Source: Patescibacteria group bacterium
GTDB lineage: Bacteria; Patescibacteriota; Minisyncoccia; Phycocordibacterales; Phycocordibacteraceae
Length of the DNA stretch: 64,000 nucleotides
NCBI GenBank assembly: GCA_019752595.1
Contig: JAIELV010000001.1
Location: 726,240-790,239, forward strand
Reading direction: 5' to 3'
Part shown: positions 5,420 to 59,420 of the stretch, in pieces
How positions within the stretch are numbered: position 1 is the stretch's first letter
Layout: every line of letters begins with the position of its first letter
Notes under the pieces: model-generated
The model's database searches: none
The model's input: only the letters and a program-made list of their open reading frames with translations
What the model was told of the DNA's origin: nothing
Program-made: the position numbers and the translations under genes

Positions 5420-6034
5420 ATGAAAGGGAAATTCATCGTTTTTGAAGGCGGGGAAGGTTCGGGCAAGGATACGCACATTGAGCTCCTGAAGCCGAAGTTT
5501 CCTGATGCGGTGTTTACTCGTGAGCCTGGGGGCACGAAATTCGGCATGGAAATGCGCCGCCTTTTACTTGAATGGCGAGAGAGCGAGATTGATGCACTGA
5601 CGGAACTTTTTTTCTTTTCAGGCGCGCGCGTGCAGTCGATGAAAGAAATCGTGTCGCCCGCGCTCGCCTCGGGGAAGACAGTTTTTTCTAACCGATGGGC
5701 GCTCGGCACAATCGCGTATCAGGTGTACGGGCGAGACCGCTTAGATCTCCTTGATATTGCTCAGGTTGCTATCAAGAAAGCTGTAGGGGATGACATGCCT
5801 GACTTGACGATATATCTCGACATAGACCCCGAGGTCGGAATCAAACGCGTGGAGTCGAGGAACGATGGTAAGACACGCTTTGACGCAGAATCTGTGGCAT
5901 TCCACACTCGCGTACGCGATGGCTTCCTGAAGCATCTTCCCGATTTCGGCAAAAATGCCGTTATCGATACGTCAGGGCCGATAGAGGATGTCCAAACACA
6001 GATAGAAAAAGCACTCACTTCCGCAGGTATTTAA
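5420..6034 (+). CDS. tmk: thymidylate kinase
   Basis: P-loop FIVFEGGEGSGKDT, REPGGT..., DRL motif. Confidence 0.85.
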   Translation: MKGKFIVFEGGEGSGKDTHIELLKPKFPDAVFTREPGGTKFGMEMRRLLLEWRESEIDALTELFFFSGARVQSMKEIVSPALASGKTVFSNRWALGTIAYQVYGRDRLDLLDIAQVAIKKAVGDDMPDLTIYLDIDPEVGIKRVESRNDGKTRFDAESVAFHTRVRDGFLKHLPDFGKNAVIDTSGPIEDVQTQIEKALTSAGI

Positions 6035-6070
6035 TTGGGCTAGACGCGAGTCCATTTTTATATATCAGCG

Positions 6071-6110
6071 TGTTACCATGTTAACACGCTGATATATTTC
6101 AAGAAGTCAA
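6071..6110. repeat. 17-bp inverted repeat (ATATATCAGCGTGTTA ... TAACACGCTGATATAT) between tmk and glyA
   Basis: read directly; half-sites contain CTGATAT/ATATCAG as in the 24-bp palindrome family. Confidence 0.6.
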
Positions 6111-6178
6111 TCAGCTCTCGGGTTATCCACGGGGACTGCTTTTAGACAAGTCTTCTTTGGCCGCGCTATACTTGCCAG

Positions 6179-7444
6179 ATGAAAATCCCATTTATCGACG
6201 CTCAAGACAGTGAAGTTTCAAAAGCGATCCACGGCGAAGAGGAGCGGGAGAAAGAGGGACTAGAACTCATTCCGTCAGAAAACTACGTCTCAAAAGCAGT
6301 CCACGAGGCTCTTGGCTCCGTGATGACCAATAAATATTCGGAAGGGTATCCTGGTGCGCGCTACTACGGCGGGCAGATGTACACCGATATCGTCGAAAAC
6401 ATCGCTCGCGACCGCGCCAAGCAACTTTTCAATTGTAAATTCGCAAATGTGCAGCCACTTTCTGGTGCTCCTGCGAACGTTGCTACGTATTTCGCGCTTC
6501 TTCAGCCTGGCGACACTGTGCTTGGCATGGACCTCTCACACGGAGGCCATCTCACGCACGGGCATCCCGTGACGTACCTGACCAAGATTTTCAAATTCGT
6601 CCGTTACAAGATGAAAGATACAGCAACGGGTGAGATTGATTACGATGAAATGCTCGAAGTCGCGAAACGCGAGAAACCAAAAATTGTTCTCGCAGGCTAT
6701 TCTGCATATTCGCGCGAATTGGATTACGCAAAAATTTCCGCAATAGCAAAAGAAGTGGGGGCGGTTTCAATGATGGACGCCGCGCACATTGCAGGCTTGA
6801 TTGCTGGCAAGGCACATAAAAATCCTTTTGATTTTGGTATTGATATTGTCACGACCACAACACACAAAACACTTCGTGGCCCGCGCGGAGGAATGATTCT
6901 CACTCGTGACAATGAAGAGATCGCAAAGAAGATCGACAAATCGATTTTCCCTGGTTTTCAGGGCGGCCCGCACATGCACCAGATAGCTGGGAAAGCTGTC
7001 GCGTTTGGTGAAGCGCTTCACCCGTCGTTTCAGGTATACGCAACGCAGATTTTGAAGAATGCGAAAGCAATGGAAGCAGTCTTTGCGAGAGAAAACGTTC
7101 GCATGATTGCTGGTGGTACTTCAAACCACTTGATTCTTGCCGATGTGTTCGGCTCTCTGGGTGTGACTGGCGCTGATGCAGAGCGAGTGTTGGATGAAGT
7201 GGGTATTACCCTGAACAAAAATGCGATTGCAGATGATGTCAGAAAACCGATGGACCCGTCAGGAATCCGTTTCGGTACGCCTGCAATCACTACTCGTAAA
7301 TTTACTGAAAAAGAATGCGCGCGTGTCGCAGAGTTGATGATTGAGACACTGAGAAACAAAGACAACACAGATATGAAAACCAAAATTCGTGCAGAGATAA
7401 AAGAAATGGCTCTGGCATTTCCAATCCCTGAATCTTTTGTATAA
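6179..7444 (+). CDS. glyA: serine hydroxymethyltransferase
   Basis: LIPSENYVS..., SEGYPGARYYGG, PLP-lysine region TTTTHKTLRGPRGG. Confidence 0.92.
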   Translation: MKIPFIDAQDSEVSKAIHGEEEREKEGLELIPSENYVSKAVHEALGSVMTNKYSEGYPGARYYGGQMYTDIVENIARDRAKQLFNCKFANVQPLSGAPANVATYFALLQPGDTVLGMDLSHGGHLTHGHPVTYLTKIFKFVRYKMKDTATGEIDYDEMLEVAKREKPKIVLAGYSAYSRELDYAKISAIAKEVGAVSMMDAAHIAGLIAGKAHKNPFDFGIDIVTTTTHKTLRGPRGGMILTRDNEEIAKKIDKSIFPGFQGGPHMHQIAGKAVAFGEALHPSFQVYATQILKNAKAMEAVFARENVRMIAGGTSNHLILADVFGSLGVTGADAERVLDEVGITLNKNAIADDVRKPMDPSGIRFGTPAITTRKFTEKECARVAELMIETLRNKDNTDMKTKIRAEIKEMALAFPIPESFV

Positions 7445-8081: not shown

Positions 8082-8429
8082 ATGGAAAAGAAATTAAAGG
8101 ATATTTTTTCTCACGGAGAAGGAACCTCAACCTGCTTTCACTGCGGTAAGGCGGTACCGTGGGGTTCAACAGAATCAATTGAGTTCGGTTCGCATTTTTC
8201 TTTGTGGCCTTTCCACGAAAATTGTGTACCACTATATATCGGGCATCTTTTAGAACATATGGAACTTTCGGAGGGGAGCGCACTCTCAAACTTCAAGGAA
8301 AATCTTGAACGAACTTATGCGGCCTGTCTGTTCTGTGGAGGCCTGGTTCTGAAAGAAAGAGCAAAATCTATAGACGGAGGGTATGTGCACGTCACGGCAA
8401 AATGCCTAAAATATTTCCATATCCGCTAA
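8082..8429 (+). CDS. hypothetical Cys-rich (zinc-finger-like) protein, 115 aa
   Basis: CFHCGK...C...CLFCGG...C pattern; overlaps upstream of argS. Confidence 0.4.
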   Translation: MEKKLKDIFSHGEGTSTCFHCGKAVPWGSTESIEFGSHFSLWPFHENCVPLYIGHLLEHMELSEGSALSNFKENLERTYAACLFCGGLVLKERAKSIDGGYVHVTAKCLKYFHIR

Positions 8430-8455
8430 TGCGGACTGGTTGTATAGTGTCGCTT

Positions 8456-16326: not shown

Positions 16327-18186
16327 ATGATAGTTCCTATGCAGGATGATTCCGCATTGGAGCGACTTTCAAAGCGTCTTGATGCTGGCAAAAATGAGCA
16401 AGAGCAGACTCGTTCGGGTTTGTATACTTCATACACAGGGGCTCCACAATCATGGAAGCCTGATGTTGATCAATCACCTATGAGTAAGAAGCCAAAAATG
16501 AAACCGCTTGAAATTTTGTTCGCCTCTTCGGTTGTTTTTTTCGTGGTTGCTTCTGCTGTTGCGGCACTTCTGTTCTTGGGAGGGAATAATACTGTTTCTA
16601 CGAAAAACGTTAGCGTGCAGGTCAGCGGCCCTGCGCAAATCGGTGCAGGTTCCACACTTTCGCTTCAGGTTGTGGTCACAAATAAAAATGCAGTTCCGAT
16701 GGAACTCACGGATCTTATTGTTGAATTTCCCGAAGGCACACGCTCTGATTTTGATATTGGTGTTGAATTGCCTCGCATACGCGAATCATTGGGCACTATT
16801 CAGCCTGGCGAAAGCGTGAATCGCACTATACGCGCGGTTTTATTTGGTCTTCAGGGCACGAACGCAACTATAAAAGCATCTGCTGAGTACCGTGTGCCGT
16901 CTTCAAACGCGGTATTTGTCTCAGGTTCAACGTACAGCGTAAATCTAAATGAATCGCCCGCGGTTATTTCTGTCGAAACTTTGAAAGAGGCGAGTGCGGG
17001 GCAGGAAGTAACGTTCGGTGTGTCAATTCGTTCCAACGCACCCGATGTGCTTTCCGATATGTTGCTCTTAGCGTCATACCCACCAGGATTTTCTTTCCTC
17101 TCCGCGAATCCGAAGGCGAGTGCGGGTACTACTGCATGGGAGTTAGGGGATATTGAACCAGGCGGTTCGCGCACGGTTCTTGTGACGGGCACGTTTTCGG
17201 GTGAAGACGGTGAGAGTAAAGTGGTGAAGTTTTCTGCAGGTAACAAAAAGCAAGGAGAGGTAGATAAAATTGCTGCACCACTCGCAACCTCCGACGTGTC
17301 GCTGACGTTGCGAAAGCCGTTCATGTCTCTTGAAATTACTGTTGATGGTAAAAACGCTGAAACTCATTCGGTTTCGCGTGGGGGCACTGTGCGGGGCACG
17401 GTGCAGTGGATGAACAATCTTCCAAACCGCGTCCAGAATGTCGTTATTGTCCTTACCCTGAACGGAGTTGCCATTGACCCGACGTCGATTAGAAGTCAAA
17501 ACGGATTTTATAACTCAAACATCAACTCAATTACGTGGGACAAGACGTCTGCCGCAGAGTATTCAGACGTCGGACCAGGAGAGTTTGGCTCAGAACAATT
17601 TACGTTTCAGATTTTGCCCGCCAACCGAGGCCCCCTCAAAAATGCGGAGGTACTTCTGACAGCGAACGTGAAAGCCAACCGCCTGACCGAAACGAATGTG
17701 CCTGAAGCGATTGAATCTTCTGATTCAACAAAAGTACTCGTGCTGACCGACTTTATTTTGAATACGGTCGCGGTACCAACGGGTGGCGCTATTCCGCCAA
17801 AGGCAGGAGCTGAGACGCAGTATTTGGTGACGTGGAATGTATCTAACTCAGGCAACGCTATCGCAAACGGTGTGACGACGGGGGTTTTGCCCTCGTATGT
17901 TACGTATGTCGATGCTCGGGGGAGTGACAGTGTGACGTATAACGCAGGCTCGCGAACGGTATCGTGGGACATTGGGGATGTGGCCGTGGGTCAGTCAAAG
18001 ACTGCATCATTTATCGTAAGTCTCCTACCGTCAGTATCTCAGGTCGGCCAAGCCCCTGAGCTTGTTATTAATCAACGTGCCGTTGGTGTCGACCGATTTG
18101 TTCGACAGAATGTTGAATCATCTGCACCAAACCTACGCACGGCGCCCTCAGGGGGCTCTTCGTCTAGTGGCATTGTGGTACCTTAG
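16327..18186 (+). CDS. large membrane-anchored surface protein with repetitive beta-rich ectodomain
   Basis: N-terminal TM LEILFASSVVFFVVASAVAALLFLGG, Thr/Ser/Val/Gly-rich repeats. Confidence 0.5.
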   Translation: MIVPMQDDSALERLSKRLDAGKNEQEQTRSGLYTSYTGAPQSWKPDVDQSPMSKKPKMKPLEILFASSVVFFVVASAVAALLFLGGNNTVSTKNVSVQVSGPAQIGAGSTLSLQVVVTNKNAVPMELTDLIVEFPEGTRSDFDIGVELPRIRESLGTIQPGESVNRTIRAVLFGLQGTNATIKASAEYRVPSSNAVFVSGSTYSVNLNESPAVISVETLKEASAGQEVTFGVSIRSNAPDVLSDMLLLASYPPGFSFLSANPKASAGTTAWELGDIEPGGSRTVLVTGTFSGEDGESKVVKFSAGNKKQGEVDKIAAPLATSDVSLTLRKPFMSLEITVDGKNAETHSVSRGGTVRGTVQWMNNLPNRVQNVVIVLTLNGVAIDPTSIRSQNGFYNSNINSITWDKTSAAEYSDVGPGEFGSEQFTFQILPANRGPLKNAEVLLTANVKANRLTETNVPEAIESSDSTKVLVLTDFILNTVAVPTGGAIPPKAGAETQYLVTWNVSNSGNAIANGVTTGVLPSYVTYVDARGSDSVTYNAGSRTVSWDIGDVAVGQSKTASFIVSLLPSVSQVGQAPELVINQRAVGVDRFVRQNVESSAPNLRTAPSGGSSSSGIVVP

Positions 18187-18236
18187 TCAGCTTTTAAGGA
18201 ATAGCGTTTAGGGTTTAGGGAAGATACAATCACAAA

Positions 18237-19634
18237 ATGCAAAAGTCGGACGGAGTGATGGAAAAAATAGTCTCTCTCGCGAAGCGCCGAGGCTTTGTGT
18301 ATCAGGGGTCTGAAATATACGGCGGTATGGCTGGCATGTATGACTTCGGTCCGTACGGTGTTGAACTCTTAAATAATCTGAAAGCTGCGTGGTGGAAGGA
18401 ACACGTACAAATTCGCGATGATTTTTTTGGGCTTGATTCAGCGATGTTTAAAGATCCACGTGTGTGGGAAGCATCTGGGCATACTTCAGGCTTTTCAGAC
18501 CCTTTGGCAGAATGCAAAAAGTGCAATACGCGTATTCGTGTCGACAAGGAACTGGAGAAAGTGGGAGTCAAAGCCGATGAGAAAATGTCAGAGGCTGAGT
18601 TGTCTAAGTTATTTGAGGAACATAAAAAAAACATCCCGTGTCCTAAGTGTGGGTCGCACGACTACACGCCCGTACGAGCATTCAATCTTTTGGTTAAAAC
18701 AAATATGGGTGATTTCACGGGTGTTAATGCCGAGCCCGTGTATCTTCCAGGGGAAGCCTGTCAGGGTATTTATTTGAATTTTAAAAACGTCGTAGACACG
18801 ACACGTGCCAAAGTCCCGTTTGGTATTGCGCAAATCGGCAAAGCATTTAGAAATGAAATTTCGCCGAGAAACTTTTTGTTCCGTACGCGCGAGATGGAGC
18901 AGGCGGATACCCAGTACTTTGTGAAACCGAACGAGAATAAAGACGCGTATGAGCGAATTAAGAAGGATCGTTTTGATTGGTATGTGCGCCTCGGTATTAA
19001 GCCAGAGAATTTGAGATGGAAACAACACGACAATTTGGTCTTTTACGCGAAGGACGCATGGGATATTGAATACAACTTCCCGACGGGCTTTGATGAATTG
19101 GAGGGAGTGCACGACCGCACTGACTATGACTTAACGCAACACATGAAGCATTCAGGTACCGACCTTACCTACACTGATCCGTATACTGCGGAAAAATATA
19201 TTCCCTGGATACTTGAAACATCAGTAGGCATGGGCCGTATGTTTCTCGCATTTTTTGCTGATGCGTACACCGAAGATGAGCTTGGCGGGGAAGTGCGCAC
19301 CGTATTAAAACTCTCACCGAAGCTCGCTCCGATTAAAGCAGCGGTATTTCCACTTCTCAAAAATAAACCTGAGTTAGTGGAAAAGGCGCGCGAAGTATAT
19401 GAACTTTTCAAAAAGGAAGTGCGTACCGAATGGGACGATAACGGCAACATAGGGAAGCGCTACAGGAGGCAAGATGAAATCGGCACCCCGTTTTGCATTA
19501 CGGTCGACTTCGATACTTTAGGTGAGACGCCTGAGCATAAAGATACCGTTACTGTGCGCAACCGCGATACAGGAGAGCAGGAAAGGCTTTCGATAGCGGA
19601 TGCTATCTGGAAGGTAAGACAGGCTGTTTCGTAG
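18237..19634 (+). CDS. glyQS: glycine--tRNA ligase (alpha2 type)
   Basis: MEKIVSLAKRRGFVYQGSEIYGG...GPYGVELLNNLK, class II motifs. Confidence 0.9.
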   Translation: MQKSDGVMEKIVSLAKRRGFVYQGSEIYGGMAGMYDFGPYGVELLNNLKAAWWKEHVQIRDDFFGLDSAMFKDPRVWEASGHTSGFSDPLAECKKCNTRIRVDKELEKVGVKADEKMSEAELSKLFEEHKKNIPCPKCGSHDYTPVRAFNLLVKTNMGDFTGVNAEPVYLPGEACQGIYLNFKNVVDTTRAKVPFGIAQIGKAFRNEISPRNFLFRTREMEQADTQYFVKPNENKDAYERIKKDRFDWYVRLGIKPENLRWKQHDNLVFYAKDAWDIEYNFPTGFDELEGVHDRTDYDLTQHMKHSGTDLTYTDPYTAEKYIPWILETSVGMGRMFLAFFADAYTEDELGGEVRTVLKLSPKLAPIKAAVFPLLKNKPELVEKAREVYELFKKEVRTEWDDNGNIGKRYRRQDEIGTPFCITVDFDTLGETPEHKDTVTVRNRDTGEQERLSIADAIWKVRQAVS

Positions 19635-19698
19635 AAGGCGCTCTCTTTGTCGTTTACGCTCGCTCGCTAAACAGTGAAAAAAGCGTTATCCTAAGCCA

Positions 19699-20757
19699 AT
19701 GGATAAGGGGCTCTTCTCGATAACTATCTCCCCGAATACGTTTGTGACCGCGATCGCAGTTGGCCTTTTGGCATGGCTTGTTTTTTATCTTCGAGATTTA
19801 GTTCTTATTGTTCTTGCTGCGGTTGTGCTTGCGTCCGCAGTGGAGCCCGCGGTGCAGTGGTTTATGGAAAAAAAGTTCGGTCGCGGATGGGCAGTTGGTG
19901 CTGTGTATGCGGGCATTTTTACCGCCTTCTTTGTTGTCACGTATCTTCTTGCCCCGCCGTTTATGCAGGAAGCAAAAGGTTTTATCGTCAACCTCCCGCA
20001 GTTTGCCAATTCATTTGATGTCGGGAATTACATACCAGACACAGGCACTGCAGCAGACGCTCTTGTTTCGCCATCAGCAGTGGCTGCATTGTTGATTCAA
20101 CTCCAAAATCTTATTATCCCAACAGGTGAAGGCGCGTTCTCTGCACTCGCTGGAGTTTTAGGTGGTGCTTTTGCGTTTCTTCTCATCATTATTCTTTCGA
20201 TTTATTTTGCCGCTCAAGAAACAGGCGTTGACGATTTCATTCGTCTTGTAGTTCCTGTAAAGCATCAGGAGTACGCAGTTAATTTGTGGAAACGCTCGCA
20301 CCATAAAATTGGTTTGTGGATGCAGGGGCAATTGATACTCTCTTTGATTATCGGCGTGTTGGGGTATTTGTGGCTCTCTATATTTCAAGTTCCGTACGCA
20401 TTCTTGCTCGCCATATTTGCAGCAATCATTGAAATCGTTCCTGTGTTCGGCTCTGTTATTTCGGGAATTGTGGCGGTGGTGATTGCCGCTTCCCATGGAG
20501 GCATGGAGCTCGCGCTTATTATCGGGGTCGGATTTTTGGTAATTAACCTTTTACAGTCAAACCTCATCTATCCATTGGTGGTGAAGCGCGTTGTTGGCGT
20601 TCCGCCAATCATGGTTATTCTCGCGATGATTGCAGGAGGGCAGATCGCAGGCTTTTTGGGAGTTCTTCTGTCGGTGCCGATTGCCGCTGCGATACAGGAG
20701 TTCGTGTCTGACATTGAGAAGGCGAAAGCGAAAGAACTGAAGGCACTGCAAAAATAG
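19699..20757 (+). CDS. AI-2E family transporter (UPF0118/PerM-like permease)
   Basis: multi-TM protein with conserved AIIEIVPVFGSVISGIVAVVIA segment. Confidence 0.65.
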   Translation: MDKGLFSITISPNTFVTAIAVGLLAWLVFYLRDLVLIVLAAVVLASAVEPAVQWFMEKKFGRGWAVGAVYAGIFTAFFVVTYLLAPPFMQEAKGFIVNLPQFANSFDVGNYIPDTGTAADALVSPSAVAALLIQLQNLIIPTGEGAFSALAGVLGGAFAFLLIIILSIYFAAQETGVDDFIRLVVPVKHQEYAVNLWKRSHHKIGLWMQGQLILSLIIGVLGYLWLSIFQVPYAFLLAIFAAIIEIVPVFGSVISGIVAVVIAASHGGMELALIIGVGFLVINLLQSNLIYPLVVKRVVGVPPIMVILAMIAGGQIAGFLGVLLSVPIAAAIQEFVSDIEKAKAKELKALQK

Positions 20758-20767
20758 TTGAAAAGTA

Positions 20768-22231
20768 ATGGGAAAACCGTTTTACCTCACCACGACGCTT
20801 CCGTATGTAAATTCAGACCCGCATATCGGGCACGCACTTGAATTGGTGCAAGCTGATGCACTGGTACGTTTTAGAAAGTCGCAAGGTGACGACGTATTTT
20901 TTAATACAGGCACTGATGAGCATGGCCAGAAAATATTTGAAGCTGCAGAAAAAGCAGGGAAGCCGATTCAAGAATACGTTGACCACTACGCAAACGAGTT
21001 TAAAAAACTAAACGGCGCGCTTGGGTTGTCCGAGGATCTGGTGTTTATCCGCACAACTGACGAGCACCACGTACAAGCGGCACAAGAAATGTGGAGGCGG
21101 TGTTCGGCAAAAGGCGATATTTACAAAAAAGAATTTGAAGGTTTGTATTGTGTAGGGTGCGAAAAATACTTAACGCAAAAAGAAATCGTTGACGGCAAGT
21201 GCGCAATTCATGGAACAGAACCAAAACTTTTAAAGGAGGAGAACTATTTCTTCAAGCTTTCAAACTACCAGAAACCCCTTGAAGAATATTTGAGCAAAGA
21301 AGGGGTCGTCATTCCTGAATGGAGGCGTCAGGAAGCCCTGAATTTCGTTCGCGAAGGGCTAGAGGATTTCAGCATTTCACGAGATAAAAGCAGGCTTTCG
21401 TGGGGTGTGCCAGTACCAGGGGATGAGAATCAGGTGATGTATGTGTGGTTTGACGCTTTGACCAATTACATTTCAACGTTGGGTTGGCCAAACGAAGGAG
21501 GGGATTTTAAAAAATTCTGGACGGATGGGGAAGTGCTGCAGGTTGCAGGCAAAGACCAAGTGCGCTTCCAATCAATCATGTGGCAGGCAATGCTCATGTC
21601 TGCTGAAATAAAAAATACCGACCAAGTGTTTTATCATGGCTTCATAAATTCCGACGGGCAGAAGATGAGTAAGTCGTTAGGAAATGTCATTAGTCCGTAC
21701 GACTTGGTAAAAAAATACGGCACGGACGCCACTCGATACCTCTTATTGCGTCACGTGCACCCGACAGAAGATTCTGACGTTACGTGGGCACGCCTTGATG
21801 AATGGTACACGGCGAACCTTGTAAACGGACTTGGTAATTTGGTTGCGCGCGTAATGAAGCTTGCAGAAGATAATATAGATGAACCTGTCGTCTTCAAAAC
21901 ATTCTCTTATTCTCAAGAATATGAGAATGTTTTGAAAGGCTTTCAATTTAATTACGCCATCGATGCTGTTTGGCAAAAGATCCAAGAAACCGACGAGCGC
22001 ATTACTCGCGATGAACCGTTTAAGGTCGTGAAGTCAGACCCAGTACGTGGCAAAGCAATGCTCGCTGCTCTTGCTGTCGAGATTTGGAATATTGGGTATT
22101 TGCTCGGTCCGTTCATGCCTGAAACAAGCAAAATAATTCTTAATGCAGTAAAGCAAAACAAAAAACCTGAAAATCTTTTTCCTCGACTTGCTGAAGCGCC
22201 ACGCGAAGGCAGTCCTCGCCTACCCGTATAG
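20768..22231 (+). CDS. metG: methionine--tRNA ligase
   Basis: YLTTTLPYVNSDPHIGHA (HIGH), CxxC knuckle, KMSKSLGNVI. Confidence 0.92.
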   Translation: MGKPFYLTTTLPYVNSDPHIGHALELVQADALVRFRKSQGDDVFFNTGTDEHGQKIFEAAEKAGKPIQEYVDHYANEFKKLNGALGLSEDLVFIRTTDEHHVQAAQEMWRRCSAKGDIYKKEFEGLYCVGCEKYLTQKEIVDGKCAIHGTEPKLLKEENYFFKLSNYQKPLEEYLSKEGVVIPEWRRQEALNFVREGLEDFSISRDKSRLSWGVPVPGDENQVMYVWFDALTNYISTLGWPNEGGDFKKFWTDGEVLQVAGKDQVRFQSIMWQAMLMSAEIKNTDQVFYHGFINSDGQKMSKSLGNVISPYDLVKKYGTDATRYLLLRHVHPTEDSDVTWARLDEWYTANLVNGLGNLVARVMKLAEDNIDEPVVFKTFSYSQEYENVLKGFQFNYAIDAVWQKIQETDERITRDEPFKVVKSDPVRGKAMLAALAVEIWNIGYLLGPFMPETSKIILNAVKQNKKPENLFPRLAEAPREGSPRLPV

Positions 22232-40678: not shown

Positions 40679-42735
40679 GAACGTTATGTGGTTTTCAAGC
40701 TTCCTCGCGGAAGTTTGAAGGGTGTATGGTGGATGCCTTGACTTTAAAGAGCGATGAAGGACGCAGCACGTCTGCGAAAAGTTTCGGGGAGCTGACGAGC
40801 AAGCTTCGATCCGAAAATATCCGAATGGGGAAACCCCTCGTACTCCGTACGAGATCTGTGGAGTGTTCTGCAGATGCGCACCTCGGGAAGTGAAACATCT
40901 CAGTACCGAGAGGAAAAGAAACCAACAGTACATCTCGGTCTCTGCACAAATTTATTTTGTACAGGGACCGGGATTCTGGAATTTCCCTAGTAGCGGCGAG
41001 CGAAAAGGAATCAGCCCAAACCGTATCAGCAATGGTGCGGGGTTGTAAGGCGATGGCGTTCCAATTTATTGGAAGAGAAGTTATCAAAAATATTGGTAGA
41101 AGAATCTGCTGGGAAGCAGAACCCTAGTGGGTAATAGTCCCGTATTCGAAATCAATATTTCTTCTTTGCCATCGATCTTGAGTAATCCGAGACACGAATA
41201 GCTTGGATGAATCCGCCGGAACTAACCGGCAAGGCTAAATATCTTTAAAGATCGATAGTGAACCAGTACCGTGAGGGAAAGGTGAAAAGCAGCCCGGAAG
41301 GGCAGTGAAATAGTTCTGAAACCATACATCTACAAAGAGTCGAAGAGGTCGCAAGACCTCGACGGCGTGCCTATTGAAGAATGAGCCGGCGAGTTTACGC
41401 ACACGGCAGGCTAAGGGGCGATCCCCCGGAGCCGTAGGGAAACCGAGTGTGAATAGCGCGTTAGTCGCGTGCGTAAGACCCGAAGCCAGGTGAGCTTGTC
41501 ATGAGCAGGGTGAACCACTCCGAAAGGAGTGGGGAGGCCCGAACCCGTTGGTCGTACAACGCCTTGGGATGACTTGTGACAAGGAGTGAAAAGCTTATCG
41601 AACCTGGTAATAGCTGGTTCTCTCCGAAATAGCTTTTGGGCTAGCGTCTGACGTTCCCTCTGGGGGTAGAGCACTGGAAGGGTCAAATAGGGAGCAATCT
41701 CGTTGACCCTATCAAACTCCGAATACCAGAGATTAAAAGTCAGGCAGTTAGACTACGGGCGCTAAGGTCCGTTAGTCGAGAAGGGAAGAGCCTAGATCTC
41801 AAGTTAAGGTCCCTAAATATGCGCTAAGTGCATCACAAGGAAGTTGAAGTTCTATGACAGTGAGGATGTTGGCTTAGAAGCAGCCACCATTTAAAGAAAG
41901 CGTAACAGCTCACTCATCGAGAACTTCTGCGCCGAAGATAATCGGGGCTAAGCGCGTTACCGAAACTGAGGAATTACAGAAGATCCGTCTTCTGTATTTG
42001 GTAGGAGAGCGTTCCAAACCGCAATGAAGGATAAGGGGTGACCCATTCTGGAGCGTTTGGAAGTGAGAATGCCGGCACAAGTAACCACAATGTGGGTGAG
42101 AACCCCACACGCCGAAAGAATGAGGTTTCCTTCGCACTGATGATCAGCGAAGGGTTAGTCGGGCCTAAGGGAATGGCGAAAGCCGCACCCGATGGACACA
42201 CGGTTAATATTCCGTGACTTAGTATGTATGCGATGGAGAGACGGAGTGCTGTATCTACTGCCCGTTACTGGATTTGGGTTCAATGCATGAGGATGTGACT
42301 TCAGGAAAATCCGGGTCACGCCAGTCCGAGTGTAGTGGAAATGTCCTGGTTCGCCAGGATAAATAGTAGAGAGCGCGCTTCCCAGAAAATCTTCTAAGCT
42401 TCAGTACATACAATCCGTACCGCAAACCGACACAGGTATTCAGGTCGAGTAGACCAAGGCGAACGAGTGAGAGGTCCTCAAGGAACTCGGCAAAATAGCG
42501 GCCGTAACTTTGGAATAAGGCCTGCCCTCTCTTAATTGAGGGGGCCGCAGCGAAAGATTCCCAACCGACTGTTTATCAAAAACACAGCTCCCTGCGAACT
42601 CGTAAGAGGATGTATAGGGGGTGACACCTGACCAATGCCAGAAGGTCAACTATGGGTGGTGCGTGGTAGCAATACTATGTGCTGACCTATATAAGCCCTG
42701 GTCAATGTCGGCGATAACTATAATCGTCCTAAGGT

Positions 42736-42955
42736 TTCCGTCTTGAGTAATCGAGGCGGGAAGGATTGGGACGATTGTAGAGATAAACAGAAATAAAAAT
42801 ACACTAAGTTACCTTACATGCAGTAATGCATGCGTAATCCAATCATGACCAACAAGAGACCAAATGTCATGCTCCTTCAATTTTGCAAAAGGTTTATCCT
42901 GAGCGAAGTCGAAGGATGAAGATAGAGTCCTTCGTACAATAAATAGGAATCGAAG
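42736..42955 (+). other. ~220-nt insertion in 23S between CCUAAGGU and AGCGUAAUUCC (E. coli ~1931; helix 69-71 region); intron or intervening sequence
   Basis: exon junction reconstructs the universally conserved CCUAAGGU|AGCGAAAUUCC; insert ends in G. Confidence 0.65.
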
Positions 42956-43583
42956 AGCGTAATTCCTTGTCTGGTAAGTTCAGACGTGCACGAATGGTGT
43001 AACGAGTTGGGAACTGTCTCGAGGACTTGCTCGGTGAAAATACAGTACCGGTGAAGATGCCGGTTACTCATAGTTAGACGAAAAGACCCCAGAAGCTTTA
43101 CTGTAGCTTCGTATTGGGATTATGATTCATCTGCGTAGAATAGATGGGAGAGGTTGAAGCATGGGTTTTGGCTCATGTGGACTCGTCAGTGCAATACCAT
43201 CCTTATGCGTCGTAATTTCTAACCTCTGGAAAACACCAGGGAGACAGTGCGTGGTAGGCAGTTTGAGTGGGGCGCTCTCCTCCAAAAAAGTAACGGAGGA
43301 GTCTACAAAGGTCAGCTAGGCGCGAATGGAAACCGTGCCGGTCGTGTAATGGCACAAGCTGGCTTAACTGCGAGACGTGAATGTCGAGCAGACACGAAAG
43401 TGGAGCATAGTGAACCGCTGATTCGCATTAGATGCGGTCAAAGATTATCTGATAAAAGTTACTCTGGGGATAACAGGCTAGTTCCGCCTAAGCGTCCATA
43501 GCGACGGCGGAGTTCGGCACCTCGATGTCGGCTCACCACATCCCGGAGCTGGAGAAGGTTCCAAGGGTATGGCTGTTCGCCAT

Positions 43584-43615
<32 letters not shown>

Positions 43616-44037
43616 TTAATTAGAGAAGGTGTTAGGGACTAGGTGCCAGGTGTTAGCTTTAAAGCTAAAACCTAGTACCTGGGAGCTAGAACCTTGTCTG
43701 TTAAGCAGTCTGAACCCGATTGAGAGAGAAAGTTGTTCAAATGAATATCAGGTTTTTTCGTCACAAAAAGAAACAGAACCAATCATCACGGCGGCGCATG
43801 TACGAAATTACATGACGCACCGATCAACATATATCGGGAAAATCCTGCAAAGGACAATTCCGAGGGAAGCACGGCAGCTTGCTAACGCAACTGCACTTGG
43901 ATTTTCTAGAACGGTTTACCGTTAAGAAAATCTCGGCGCCCGTAGAGACTGCACGTTGATTACCCGAAACGATTTGTAAAAGAATTGGAGGGTAAAGATA
44001 CAGTCCGATACTTTCGGTAACGAAAGCAAACACATTG
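43616..44037 (+). other. ~422-nt insertion in 23S between GGGUUCAGACCGU and CGUGAGACAGGUUGGUC (E. coli ~2590-2593, canonical group I intron site); intron or intervening sequence
   Basis: exon junction reconstructs conserved AGAACGU|CGUGAGACAG; insert ends in G; contains a 98-aa ORF without recognisable homing-endonuclease motifs. Confidence 0.65.
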
Positions 44038-44180
44038 CGTGAGACAGGTTGGTCTCCTATCTACTATGAGCGTTGATATTTGAGGAGAGTCGTCCTTAGT
44101 ACGAGAGGACCGGGATGAACTGACCTCTGGTCTACCTGCTGTTCCGCCAGGAGCATTGCAGGGTAGCTATGTCGGGAAGA

Positions 44181-44211
<31 letters not shown>

Positions 44212-44437
44212 TCCCTCCAAGATTAGATATCGTTAAGGCCCGTGAGAGATGATCACGTTGATAGGCTCAAGGTGTACATGTAGCAATACATTCAGCCGAA
44301 GAGTACTAATTCGCCGATTTTTGCGGGGAAGCATGAAAATCCATAACCCTGTTTTGTGCTCGATGTTCTCTATGTGAATGAAGTCTTAAATTGAAATAAT
44401 AAAATCTTCGTATTGAATGTTTTGTTTTGGTGGTTTG

Positions 44438-44531
44438 TCAGTGGGGCCACACCCGTTCTCATTCCGAACACGGCAGTTAAGCCCACCAGAGCCGATGGTA
44501 CTCGTAAGGGGAGAGTAGGCGACCGCCAGAA
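44438..44531 (+). rRNA. rrf: 5S ribosomal RNA
   Basis: CCGAACACGGCAGTTAAGC...GATGGTACTCG...GAGAGTAGG core. Confidence 0.85.
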
Positions 44532-57713: not shown

Positions 57714-57966
57714 GCCCATAGCGATCTTTGACAACTAAATAACCAATCTATCTGTAGCAATCAGATAGGTTGTGTACCACAAGTACAATTAAACCAAGTG
57801 TACTCATTAGACAGCTTAGGAGCGGTCTGATGAGTTAAGTGTTAAGTAACCAGTACCTTCCGGAGATGTAAAAATTTTCGTTAGGGAAAGTAACCAAGAG
57901 CTTTTGTTTTTCTTCTGTTCCGTCTGTTGATTCATGCATCTCAATTGAATGCATGAATCTTTACTG

Positions 57967-59420
57967 AGAGTTTGATCCTAGCTCAGGGTGAATGCTGGCG
58001 GCGTGGATAAGGCATGCAAGTCGAGTGGGTTTAGACCCACGGCAGACGAGGTAGTAACACGTAGGAACGTACCCCGAAGTCTGGGATATTCTGTCGAAAG
58101 ACAGCGCAATACCAGATGGTCTCTAAGGAGTAAAGATTTATCGCTTCGGGAGCGGCCTGCGCAATATCAGCTAGTTGGTGAGGTAATGGCTCACCAAGGC
58201 TATGACGTTTAGGGGAGCTGAGAGGCTGACCCCCACCGATGGAACTGAGATACGGTCCTTACTCCTACGGGAGGCCGCAGTCGAGAATCTTCCGCAATGG
58301 ACGAAAGTCTGACGGAGCGACGCCGCGTGGTGGATGAAGTCCCTCTGGGACGTAAACACCTTTTATAGGGGATGAAGTTTTGACAGTACCCTAAGAATAA
58401 GGGGCTCCTAACTCTGTGCCAGCAGGAGCGGTAATACAGAGGCCCCAAGCATTACCCGGAATCACTGGGCGTAAAGGGTGCGTAGGTGGCGTGATTAGTC
58501 CTTCTTTAAATTCTCCGGGCTCAACCCGGAGACTCGGAGGGAAACGGTCATGCTGGAGGGTGTACGAGGTGTGTAGAACTCTAGGTGTAGGGGTGAAATC
58601 CGTTGATATCTAGGGGAATACCGAATGCGAAGGCAGCACACTGGGACATTCCTGACACTGAGGCACGAAAGCGTGGGTAGCGAAAAGGATTAGATACCCT
58701 TGTAGTCCACGCCCTAAACTATGTTCTCTGGCTTTGAGGAGTATCGACCCTCTTCGAGGCGAAGCTAACGCGTTAAGAGAACCGCCTGGGTAGTACGATC
58801 GCAAGATTAAAACTCAAAGGAATAGACGGGAACTCGCACAAGTAGTGGATCATGTGGCTTAATTCGTAGGTAAGCGAAGAACCTTACCAAGACTTGAAAC
58901 CTAGCTGCACGGCCTCCGAAAGGAGATCAGCCTTCGAGGGTGCTAGGCAGGTGGTGCATGGTCGTCGTCAGTTCGTGGCTTGAGCTGTTCCCTTAAGTGG
59001 GGAAACGAACGCAACCCCCGTTGCCTGTTTTAAATGTCAGGCGAGACTGCTCCCTCACGGGAGAGGAAGGTGGGGATGACGCCAGATCAGCATGCCCCTC
59101 TGATGTCTTGGGCTGCACACGTGATACAATGGCAACAACAAAGAGACGCAAGACGGTAACGTGGAGCAAATCTCAAAATGTTGCCTCAGTACGGATTGAG
59201 GTCTGCAACCCGACCTCATGAAGCTGGAATTACTAGTAATCGTGGGTCAGCCATACCACGGTGAATACGTTCTCGAGTTTTGTACTCACCGCCCATCAAC
59301 TCAAGGGAGCCGGGAATACCCGACGCTCGCGTTTATCGCGGTCCACGGTAAGTTCGGTGACAGGGAGTAAGTTGTAACAAGGCACGGGTAGCGGAAGCTG
59401 CTCGTGGAACAATTCCATGA
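57967..59420 (+). rRNA. rrs: 16S ribosomal RNA (~1454 nt), not adjacent to 23S; 3' tail CAAUUCC instead of CACCUCC
   Basis: AGAGTTTGATCCTAGCTCAG 5' end; conserved 515/800/1400 regions; helix 45 GGAA loop; processing stem CTGTTCCGTCTGTT (57917) / AACAGACGGAACAG (59534). Confidence 0.9.

What the first reader, a model, noticed from the sequence alone, without database searches (positions are those of the whole stretch)
42736..42955. ~220-nt insertion in 23S rRNA at the L1931-type site (helix 69-71 junction)
The conserved sequence CCUAAGGU|AGCG(A/U)AAUUCCUUGUC is interrupted after GGU by 220 nt that have no counterpart in standard 23S. The position corresponds to E. coli ~1931, a recognised group I intron site in LSU rRNA. 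The insert ends with G, consistent with an omega-G. It is short for a complete group I intron, and I could not place P1/IGS convincingly near its 5' end. It contains a 7-bp hairpin CGAAGGA...TCCTTCG near its 3' end.
Basis: partly seen in the sequence, partly recalled or inferred. Interest (0 to 1): 0.55.

Follow-up and report, generated by a model that had tools for sequence, protein, structure and literature searches.

The report
Group I intron lacking P4-P6 domain
The 220-base insert in this bacterium's 23S rRNA gene is a stripped-down group I intron that keeps the catalytic core but has lost a whole domain (P4-P6) thought to be present in all such ribozymes, and at least 18 distinct versions of it sit at the same site in related ultra-small (CPR) bacteria.

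Summary
Exactly 220 nt (42736-42955) interrupt the 23S rRNA after E. coli U1931; the flanking exons join to the canonical GGU|AGCG. The host is a CPR bacterium (Paceibacterota). The insert follows U and ends in G. It carries the group I R and S core elements (AGAGACCAAAUG, GAAGAUAGAGUCC), which give a P7 with the bulged-A guanosine site. It also has a P3/P7 pseudoknot, P8, a P2 hairpin with a GNRA loop, and a 15-bp guide pairing with the 5' exon. Only 6 nt (CAACAA) join the P3 5' strand to P7, so the entire P4-P6 domain is missing. This explains the Rfam Intron_gpI score of 19 bits (cut-off 50). Pattern scans found 17 further distinct homologues at the same site, in Saccharibacteria-type and Paceibacteria-type 23S genes. 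In the alignment 96% of cells are paired, 17-30 pairs carry compensatory changes, and there is exon-intron covariation. Two relatives (L013, L019) have the same core plus a normal P4-P6 and score 65 bits. The most likely reading is a reduced but still spliced group I-type intron. Splicing is inferred, not shown. CPR rRNA introns at site 1931 are known. I found no description of this P4-P6-less architecture.

The parts
42718..42732 (+). 5' exon strand of P1 (CUAUAAUCGUCCUAA; 3' strand of 23S helix 69 and the linker that follows)
   Evidence: Pairs 15 bp with 42766-42780 in the MFE fold. 14 bp are conserved in 17/17 family members, and one exon C/U change is matched by an intron G/A change (UA:15, CG:2).
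42733..42735 (+). Last three exon bases GGU; the 5' splice site follows U42735 (= E. coli U1931)
   Evidence: U-1 faces an A (42762) in 16-17 of 17 members. It could alternatively form a U-G wobble with G42763.
42736..42762 (+). Intron hairpin that extends P1 ('P1a'): 42736-42746 pairs with 42751-42761, loop GUAA 42747-42750
   Evidence: MFE fold. 7-9 of its 10 pairs show compensatory changes. In 10 of 18 relatives its 3' strand is also complementary to the 3' exon from +1 (P10, 8-13 bp), but not in the window copy.
42763..42765 (+). Invariant GGA between P1a and the guide sequence
   Evidence: Invariant in 17/17 members and present in the classical relative L019. Its role is not resolved.
42766..42780 (+). 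Internal guide sequence UUGGGACGAUUGUAG (3' strand of P1)
42781..42816 (+). A-rich joiner followed by the conserved block AGUUACCUUA
   Evidence: AG.UAC.U is invariant. ACCUU could pair with exon AAGGU, or UUACCU with 3' exon GGGUAA, but both sides are invariant so neither can be tested.
42817..42832 (+). P2 hairpin CAUGCA-GUAA-UGCAUG
   Evidence: Per-sequence folds. Loop-anchored count: 6 bp, 16-18 of 18 paired at each position with many pair types, and 17 of 18 loops are 4-nt GNRA, AAAA or UAAA. It corresponds to the first helix of the Rfam model in L019.
42833..42843 (+). J2/3 (CGUAAUCCAAU)
   Evidence: A conserved UCCAAAU-type block. The classical relative L019 has GGUCCUAAAAU at the same place.
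42844..42849 (+). P3 5' strand CAUGAC
   Evidence: Pairs with 42866-42871. 5 of 6 pairs carry compensatory changes and 99% of cells are paired.
42850..42855 (+). 6-nt linker CAACAA, where P4-P6 (J3/4, P4, P5, P6, J6/7) should be
   Evidence: The Rfam alignment deletes 81 model positions here with 0 inserted. L019 and L013 carry about 68 nt of P4-P5-P6 at this exact point.
42856..42865 (+). R element GAGACCAAAU; the P7 5' strand is G42856, (A42857 bulged), G42858, A42859, C42860
   Evidence: Matches the Rfam consensus AaAGACUAAAcG. Pairs with GUCC 42927-42930 in 17/17 members, but is invariant, partly because the search pattern fixed it.
42866..42871 (+). P3 3' strand GUCAUG
42873..42916 (+). 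P8 (UCCUUC 42873-42878 pairs with GAAGGA 42911-42916, plus an inner stem)
   Evidence: Base and inner stems are 87-89% paired, and 9 of 12 pairs carry compensatory changes.
42917..42930 (+). S element: J8/7 UGAAGAUAGA and the P7 3' strand GUCC
   Evidence: Matches the Rfam consensus UgAAGAUAUAGUC.
42931..42955 (+). 3' tail without a P9 hairpin; AGGAAU (42945-42950) pairs with 3' exon AUUCCU (42962-42967); terminal G42955 (omega-G)
   Evidence: The terminal G is present in 18/18 members. The tail-exon helix is 97% paired and an exon A/U change is matched by an intron U/A change (AU:12, UA:3). Most relatives have a P9 hairpin; the window, L009 and L024 lack it.

Best explanation
The insert is a reduced group I-type intron in the single 23S rRNA gene of a Paceibacterota (CPR) bacterium, at E. 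coli position 1931. It is transcribed as part of the pre-23S rRNA. Its guide sequence (42766-42780) base-pairs with 15 nt of the 5' exon (the 3' strand of helix 69). Together with the first intron hairpin this forms a long P1 that presents U42735. The P3/P7 pseudoknot, P8 and J8/7 form the guanosine-binding catalytic core. An external guanosine attacks after U42735, the terminal G42955 then occupies the same site, and the freed 5' exon attacks after G42955. This joins GGU to AGCG, releases the intron, and lets helix 69 fold. Unlike every canonical group I intron, the P4-P6 domain is entirely absent: 6 nt join P3 to P7. Catalysis must therefore rest on the P3-P9 half alone. The unusually long exon pairings, the GNRA-capped P2, or a host factor may help. 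Shown here: the site, the family, the helices with covariation, the core motifs, the absence of P4-P6, and relatives that still have P4-P6. Inferred: that the insert is spliced, and that splicing uses group I chemistry.
For: Site and boundaries. Core motifs aligned to Rfam Intron_gpI over the full model, with 81 P4-P6 positions deleted. Pattern scans found 17 further distinct homologues at the same 23S site. All follow U and end in G. All score below threshold in Rfam (18-33 bits). All score 169-295 bits with a family model. Structure: 96% of cells are paired against about 40% when partners are slid. 17 pairs (MAFFT alignment) or 30 pairs (model-fitted alignment) carry compensatory changes. 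The covariation score exceeded all 500 shuffles. Exon-intron covariation occurs in P1 and in the 3' tail helix. A P10-type complementarity of 8-13 bp to the 3' exon is present in 10 of 18 members; this is useful only for exon ligation. The 22-nt core is identical among members whose helices and loops have diverged heavily. It is also shared with L013 and L019, which have a normal P4-P6 and pass Rfam (65 bits). Literature: site 1931 is a frequent group I intron site in CPR 23S genes, and Brown et al. are cited as reporting that CPR rRNA insertions are removed from transcripts (PMC11270868). From my own knowledge, and seen here only as a reference-list entry in PMC13011429: Ikawa, Shiraishi and Inoue 2000 reported that a Tetrahymena ribozyme deprived of P4-P6 keeps activity.
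Against: There are no RNA data for this organism or this family. P4-P6 normally supplies the J4/5 contacts to the splice-site wobble pair and the J3/4 and J6/7 triples, and its loss cripples model ribozymes. The splice-site U faces A rather than the canonical G in the simplest register. The window copy is the most reduced type, with no P9 and no detectable P10. The invariance of the R and S blocks is partly forced by the search patterns. P7 shows no covariation. A Simkania 23S intron at this site was reported as unspliced (my recollection of Everett et al. 1999; not checked here).
Confidence: 0.6

Rival explanations
1. It is a dead relic. After losing P4-P6 the intron can no longer catalyse splicing and stays in the mature 23S rRNA as a tolerated, structured expansion at the helix 69-71 junction. 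Its helices are kept only so that it folds compactly out of the way.
For: P4-P6 is absent. The score is below the Rfam threshold. There is no P9 or P10 in the window copy. An unspliced L1931 intron has been reported in Simkania (recalled, not checked here).
Against: Single-stranded catalytic segments (J8/7, the R element, terminal G) stay identical while the helices diverge. The guide-exon, tail-exon and P10 complementarities track exon changes; a retained expansion segment would have no need for these. The site lies at the subunit interface, next to helix 69, in what appears to be the only 23S gene. Brown et al. are cited as finding CPR rRNA insertions removed from transcripts.
Confidence: 0.2
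2. It is removed by host nucleases without ligation, like an RNase III-processed intervening sequence, leaving a fragmented 23S rRNA.
For: Short ORF-less rRNA insertions in CPR that Rfam did not classify were suggested to be this type (PMC11270868). The P1 plus P1a stack is a double helix of about 27 bp.
Against: The two ends of the insert do not pair with each other as they do in known intervening sequences. The long helix contains essential exon sequence (the helix 69 3' strand), so cutting it would damage the rRNA. The site is not one of the known intervening-sequence sites. The insert carries a group I catalytic core and is homologous to bona fide group I introns.
Confidence: 0.07
3. Splicing depends on a P4-P6 domain, or a protein that replaces it, supplied in trans. 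Candidates are the second, P4-P6-containing intron of the same transcript (L2593), another RNA, or a maturase-like host protein.
For: The same 23S gene carries a classical-type intron at L2593. From my own knowledge, group I domains can assemble in trans in vitro (Doudna and Cech 1995).
Against: L004's 23S is only 3015 nt long and so has room for this one intron alone. An nhmmer search with the L013/L019 P4-P6 found nothing in the 64-kb window (E >= 2), though this is a weak test. No homing endonuclease or maturase ORF lies in or beside the intron.
Confidence: 0.1

Closest known systems
Group I introns at 23S position 1931 in CPR bacteria ('23IS7', e.g. the 691-nt I-ShaI intron; Tsurumaki et al. 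2024, PMC11270868), represented here by L013 and L019
   Same: Same insertion site. Same R and S core (GAGACCAAA ... GAAGAUAGAGUCC). Same P1 design (first hairpin, then (A)GGA, then an anti-exon guide such as CUGGGACGAUU). Same P2 with a GNRA loop, same J2/3 block, P3, P8 and terminal G.
   Different: Those introns have P4, P5 and P6 between P3 and P7 and pass the Rfam threshold (65 bits). Many encode a LAGLIDADG endonuclease. The window element has 6 nt there, no ORF, and scores 19 bits.
Engineered Tetrahymena ribozyme without P4-P6 (Ikawa, Shiraishi and Inoue 2000, Nat Struct Biol 7:1032; seen here only as a reference-list entry in PMC13011429)
   Same: A P3-P9 half that carries the guanosine site without the P4-P6 domain.
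   Different: That is a laboratory deletion that, as I recall, needs peripheral elements and high Mg2+ or polyamine. This is a natural family conserved across lineages, with different peripheral elements (a long P1, P2, and a tail-exon helix).
Small bacterial group I introns (Azoarcus tRNA-Ile about 205 nt, Anabaena tRNA-Leu about 249 nt; from my own knowledge)
   Same: Similar length, no ORF, GNRA-capped P2.
   Different: Those keep a complete P4-P6, reside in tRNA anticodon loops, and use short P1 helices with a G-U wobble.
RNase III-processed intervening sequences of bacterial 23S rRNA
   Same: Short, ORF-less insertions in 23S genes of bacteria with reduced genomes.
   Different: Those sit in other helices, form one stem from their two ends, and have no ribozyme core. 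None of this applies here.

Membership tests
Group I intron (Rfam RF00028) | Follows a U in the 5' exon and ends with G (omega-G) | tested here: met
   U42735 and G42955. The terminal G is present in 18/18 family members.
Group I intron (Rfam RF00028) | P1: an internal guide sequence pairs with the end of the 5' exon | tested here: met
   15 bp, 42718-32 with 42766-80; 99.6% of cells paired; one exon-intron compensatory pair.
Group I intron (Rfam RF00028) | U-G wobble pair at the 5' splice site | tested here: inconclusive
   U-1 faces A in 16-17 of 17 members. A U-G pair with the invariant GGA needs a bulge. The exon is invariant, so covariation cannot decide.
Group I intron (Rfam RF00028) | P3/P7 pseudoknot with R and S elements and a guanosine-binding P7 (G-C pair next to a bulged A) | tested here: met
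   AGAGACCAAAUG and GAAGAUAGAGUCC align to the model consensus. P3 covaries in 5 of 6 pairs. P7 is 4 bp plus a bulged A in 17/17 members, but invariant.
Group I intron (Rfam RF00028) | P8 between P3' and J8/7 | tested here: met
Group I intron (Rfam RF00028) | P4-P6 domain (P and Q elements, J3/4, J4/5, J6/7) | tested here: not met
   Only CAACAA (42850-42855) lies between P3 and P7. 81 model positions are deleted. No substitute helices exist in the 26-nt A-rich J1/2. The domain is present in relatives L013 and L019.
Group I intron (Rfam RF00028) | P10: guide sequence pairs with the start of the 3' exon | tested here: not met
   The window copy has 3 bp, no better than shuffled sequence. 10 of 18 relatives have 8-13 bp from +1.
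Group I intron (Rfam RF00028) | Score at or above the family's gathering threshold (50 bits) | tested here: not met
   19.3 bits, E = 0.014 in a 561-nt search. Relatives score 18-33 bits.
Group I intron (Rfam RF00028) | Guanosine-dependent self-splicing | not testable with these tools
   Needs an in vitro assay or RNA-seq.
RNase III-type 23S intervening sequence | The 5' and 3' ends of the insert pair into one long stem that replaces a hairpin loop at a known intervening-sequence site | tested here: not met
   Each end of the insert pairs with exon sequence, not with the other end. The site is the helix 69-71 junction.

The most novel reading that the evidence does not exclude
A natural, evolutionarily maintained family of group I-type ribozymes splices without any P4-P6 domain. 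The fold would be P1-P2-P3-P7-P8, with or without P9, in 199-256 nt, of which about 45 nt is guide and P1 hairpin. The family may account for some of the short, so far unclassified insertions reported in Saccharibacteria rRNA genes; that report gives no positions in the text I could read, so this link is untested. If true, P4-P6 is dispensable in vivo, and this would be a natural minimal group I catalytic core for structural and mechanistic study.
Probability: 0.5. Interest if true: 0.8.

Novelty: new variant of a known kind. Interest (0 to 1): 0.62.

Why it matters
All described group I introns are built from two core domains, P4-P6 and P3-P9, and textbook models place essential contacts in P4-P6. 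A family that lost P4-P6 yet stays under strong structural and sequence constraint, in the only 23S rRNA gene of many CPR bacteria, would define the natural minimum for this ribozyme class. It would explain why standard covariance models miss a large share of CPR rRNA insertions, and it might reclassify the 'unclassified short insertions' of Saccharibacteria as introns. Saccharibacteria include cultivated strains, so splicing may be testable directly if a cultured strain carries the intron. The 15-bp pairing with the helix 69 3' strand also suggests that this intersubunit-bridge helix cannot form until splicing has occurred.

Tried and rejected
1. A global MAFFT alignment to E. coli suggested a 392-nt insert at Ec2895. 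blastn showed this was a misalignment of a 422-nt intron at L2593.
3. An alternative short P1 (exon AAGGU with conserved ACCUU, 42812-42816) is possible in all members. Both sides are invariant, and it would form a pseudoknot with the covarying long P1. It remains unresolved.
4. RNAalifold's pairing of UUACCU with 3' exon GGGUAA is likewise invariant.
5. I looked for a P10 in the window copy and found none.
6. I looked for a P4-P6 supplied elsewhere in the window with nhmmer and found none.
7. I looked for a homing endonuclease or other ORF and found none.
8. MAFFT alignment of the reduced introns with the classical ones (A2) wrongly aligned P2 with P6. I made the comparison by hand.
9. The RNase III intervening-sequence reading was rejected on anatomy.
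10. Four literature searches for natural group I introns lacking P4-P6 found nothing relevant in the held library. This does not prove that no such report exists.
11. An exact-protein look-up for RodA failed to identify the genome.

Full report
**Observation.** The window carries a bacterial 23S rRNA gene (40706-44327, + strand, 2328 bits), a 5S gene (44426-44531) and an unlinked 16S gene (57960-59419). Around the finding the sequence reads ...AUCGUCCUAAGGU(42735)|UUCCGUC...AUCGAAG(42955)|AGCGUAAUUCCUUGUC. The Rfam LSU alignment skips 223 nt at this point. blastn against E. coli rrlH gives exon blocks Ec290-1931 = 41094-42735 and Ec1932-2593 = 42956-43615. No ORF longer than 64 aa overlaps it.

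**Host.** The glycyl-tRNA synthetase at 18237-19634 has its best named relatives (77-84% identity) in Candidatus Paceibacterota and Patescibacteria MAGs. The window also encodes IleRS, MetRS, ArgRS, FtsK, RodA and SecD. The host is therefore a CPR bacterium, a group in which rRNA insertions are common (PMC11270868).

**Affinity to group I introns.** A permissive Rfam scan gives Intron_gpI over 42732-42950, across the full model, at only 19.3 bits (gathering score 50, E = 0.014). The alignment matches AGAGACCAAAUG to the consensus AaAGACUAAAcG, and GAUGAAGAUAGAGUCC to gaUgAAGAUAUAGUCu. It deletes 81 consensus positions, with no residues in their place. These two blocks are the classical R and S elements. 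They give a P7 made of G42856-C42930, a bulged A42857, G42858-C42929, A42859-U42928 and C42860-G42927. From my knowledge of the Tetrahymena and consensus cores, this is the arrangement of the guanosine-binding site.

**Relatives.** Two pattern scans built on the R and S blocks found homologues at the same 23S site.
- The genome collection gave L003 (a Saccharibacteria MAG) and L004.
- The metagenome collection gave 20 same-site loci out of 25 hits.
- Together with the window these make 18 distinct sequences of 199-415 nt. L018 is a further copy, truncated at its 5' end.
- All follow ...CUAAGGU, precede AGCG(U/C)A(U/A)UUCC, and end in G.
- L009 and L016 share the window's exon variant. Most others have the exon type seen in the Saccharibacteria MAG L003.
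- The members tested scored below threshold in Rfam: 18-33 bits for seven, and three gave no match at E <= 10.
- A family covariance model built here scores them 169-295 bits, and finds one sense-strand copy in the window (180.9 bits).

**Anatomy, with window coordinates.**
- *P1.* Exon CUAUAAUCGUCCUAA (42718-42732) pairs with UUGGGACGAUUGUAG (42766-42780). The first intron hairpin follows (42736-46 with 42751-61, loop GUAA), and U42735 faces A42762.
- *Invariant GGA.* It lies at 42763-65.
- *P2.* CAUGCA-GUAA-UGCAUG (42817-32), flanked by the conserved blocks AGUUACCUUA and GUAAUCCAAU.
- *P3.* CAUGAC (42844-49) pairs with GUCAUG (42866-71).
- *P8.* It spans 42873-42916.
- *J8/7 and the P7 3' strand.* They span 42917-30.
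- *Tail.* It has no P9. AGGAAU (42945-50) pairs with 3' exon AUUCCU (42962-67).
- *Omega-G.* This is G42955.

**Support for the structure.**
- On the MAFFT alignment, 47 pairs are 96% paired, against 39-47% when partners are slid. 17 pairs carry compensatory changes, and the covariation score is 0.355 against 0.165 for shuffles (0 of 500 reach it).
- On the model-fitted alignment, 54 pairs are 96% paired and 30 carry compensatory changes. That alignment leans towards the structure by construction.
- P3 covaries in 5 of 6 pairs.
- P2 keeps 6 bp with many pair types, and 17 of 18 loops are GNRA, AAAA or UAAA tetraloops.
- Two exon-intron pairs covary. Exon C/U in helix 69 goes with guide G/A (UA:15, CG:2). 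Exon A/U at +6 goes with tail U/A (AU:12, UA:3).
- In 10 of 18 members the 3' strand of the first hairpin is complementary to the 3' exon from +1 for 8-13 bp, which is a P10. The window copy has none.

**The missing domain.** Between the P3 5' strand and P7 there are only six bases, CAACAA (42850-55). The 26-nt joiner after P1 is A-rich and unstructured. The elements P4, P5, P6, J4/5 and the P and Q sequences are therefore absent.

Two loci from the same scan, L019 (intron 5913-6189, 277 nt) and L013, carry the same R and S blocks and the same P1 design: a first hairpin, then (A)GGA, then an anti-exon guide. L019 also has the P2-J2/3-P3 arrangement; L013 lacks the P2 hairpin, as far as I can read it. 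Both have about 68 nt forming P4, P5 and P6 exactly where the window has CAACAA. They pass Rfam at 65 bits, with P4-P6 aligned. The window family therefore looks like a clean deletion derivative of the CPR L1931 group I intron.

**Mechanism.** The most likely reading is that the element is still removed by group I chemistry.
- The single-stranded catalytic segments and omega-G are identical among members whose helices and loops differ almost completely. If about 40% of positions had diverged neutrally, 22 of 22 identities would be expected about once in 10^5 sequences. Selection by my search pattern cannot by itself explain 17 such hits.
- The guide-exon, tail-exon and P10 complementarities make sense only for aligning exons.
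- The site is at the subunit interface, in what appears to be the only 23S gene.
- CPR rRNA insertions are reported to be absent from transcripts (Brown et al., as cited in PMC11270868).
- As I recall, a laboratory Tetrahymena ribozyme without P4-P6 keeps activity (Ikawa et al. 2000; seen here only as a reference-list entry).

Against this reading:
- No RNA evidence exists for this family.
- P4-P6 normally recognises the splice-site wobble pair, and here U-1 faces A.
- The window copy lacks P9 and P10.
- P7 is invariant, and its blocks were fixed by the search pattern.

I put 0.6 on splicing by group I chemistry, self-catalysed or assisted. I put about 0.9 on the narrower statement that this is a group I-derived element lacking P4-P6.

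**Rivals.**
- A dead relic retained in the ribosome (0.2).
- Nuclease excision without ligation (0.07).
- Dependence on a P4-P6 or a protein supplied in trans (0.1). The same gene has a second, classical-type intron at L2593. However, L004's 23S has room for only this one intron, and nhmmer found no P4-P6-like sequence elsewhere in the window.

**Comparison with what is known.** Group I introns at 23S position 1931 are established in CPR ('23IS7', often with a LAGLIDADG gene) and in a few other bacteria (PMC11270868). The same paper classified only 45% of CPR 23S insertions as group I with Rfam. [quoted passage not shown] The family described here fits that description, but the paper gives no positions in the text I could read, so the identification is an inference. 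Four full-text searches found no report of a natural group I intron without P4-P6. I therefore rate the element a new variant of a known kind.

**Caveats.**
- The relatives were found through the R and S blocks, so conservation of those 22 nt is partly ascertained.
- Only two classical relatives are in hand.
- The roles of the GGA, AGUUACCUU and UCCAAAU blocks are unresolved.
- The register of the splice-site pair is unresolved.

Noticed in passing
window 43616-44037: A second intron of 422 nt in the same 23S gene, at E. coli position 2593. It gets a sub-threshold Rfam Intron_gpI hit (43745-44027, 26.1 bits, E = 1.2e-4) with P4-P6 aligned. The 98-aa ORF at 43629-43925 has no Pfam family. A homologous intron sits at the same site in L009 (around 1520-1727).
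   Followed up: partly
window 12248-15739 (+): The isoleucyl-tRNA synthetase (1163 aa) has a histidine-phosphatase / phosphoglycerate-mutase-like domain inserted at about residues 488-665, between the two halves of the synthetase match.
   Followed up: no
window 40706-44531 and 57960-59419: The rRNA genes are unlinked and in the order 23S-5S ... 16S, on the same strand and 13.4 kb apart. ARAGORN finds no tRNA gene anywhere in the 64 kb.
   Followed up: no
window 40927-41093: About 105 nt more than E. coli between Ec228 and Ec290 in 23S domain I. Rfam shows a 52-nt and a 21-nt insertion here. Their nature (expansion or intervening sequence) was not examined.
   Followed up: no
L006 2198-2656 and L022: The same P4-P6-less intron, with an extra 205 nt inserted just after the guide sequence. 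The ends of this extra segment form a long inverted repeat (AAACUACUACCAAGUCUCA ... UGAGACUUGGUAGUAGUUU).
   Followed up: no
L018 2-439; L013 6640-6700; L019 6185-6215: In these 23S genes a further intron begins only 11 nt (L018, after AGCGCAAUUCC) or about 21 nt (L013 and L019, after ...GUCGGGUA) downstream of the L1931 intron. Parts of the 3' exon used for pairing are therefore themselves interrupted.
   Followed up: no
L004, L015, L027, L010, L029 and others, first 12 nt of the intron: In many Saccharibacteria-type members the first intron bases (for example CGAGCGCAUUUC) copy the 3' junction (AG|AGCGUAUUUCC). The hairpin's 3' strand can therefore pair either with the intron start or with the 3' exon.
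   Followed up: partly
L007 34-314 (-): The same R and S core occurs in what looks like a group I intron inside a mitochondrial cox1-like gene; the downstream sequence reads like a cox1 coding region by eye. The family model scores it 29 bits.
   Followed up: no
window 8402-22231: Four aminoacyl-tRNA synthetase genes (ArgRS, IleRS, GlyRS, MetRS) lie within 14 kb on the same strand.
   Followed up: no
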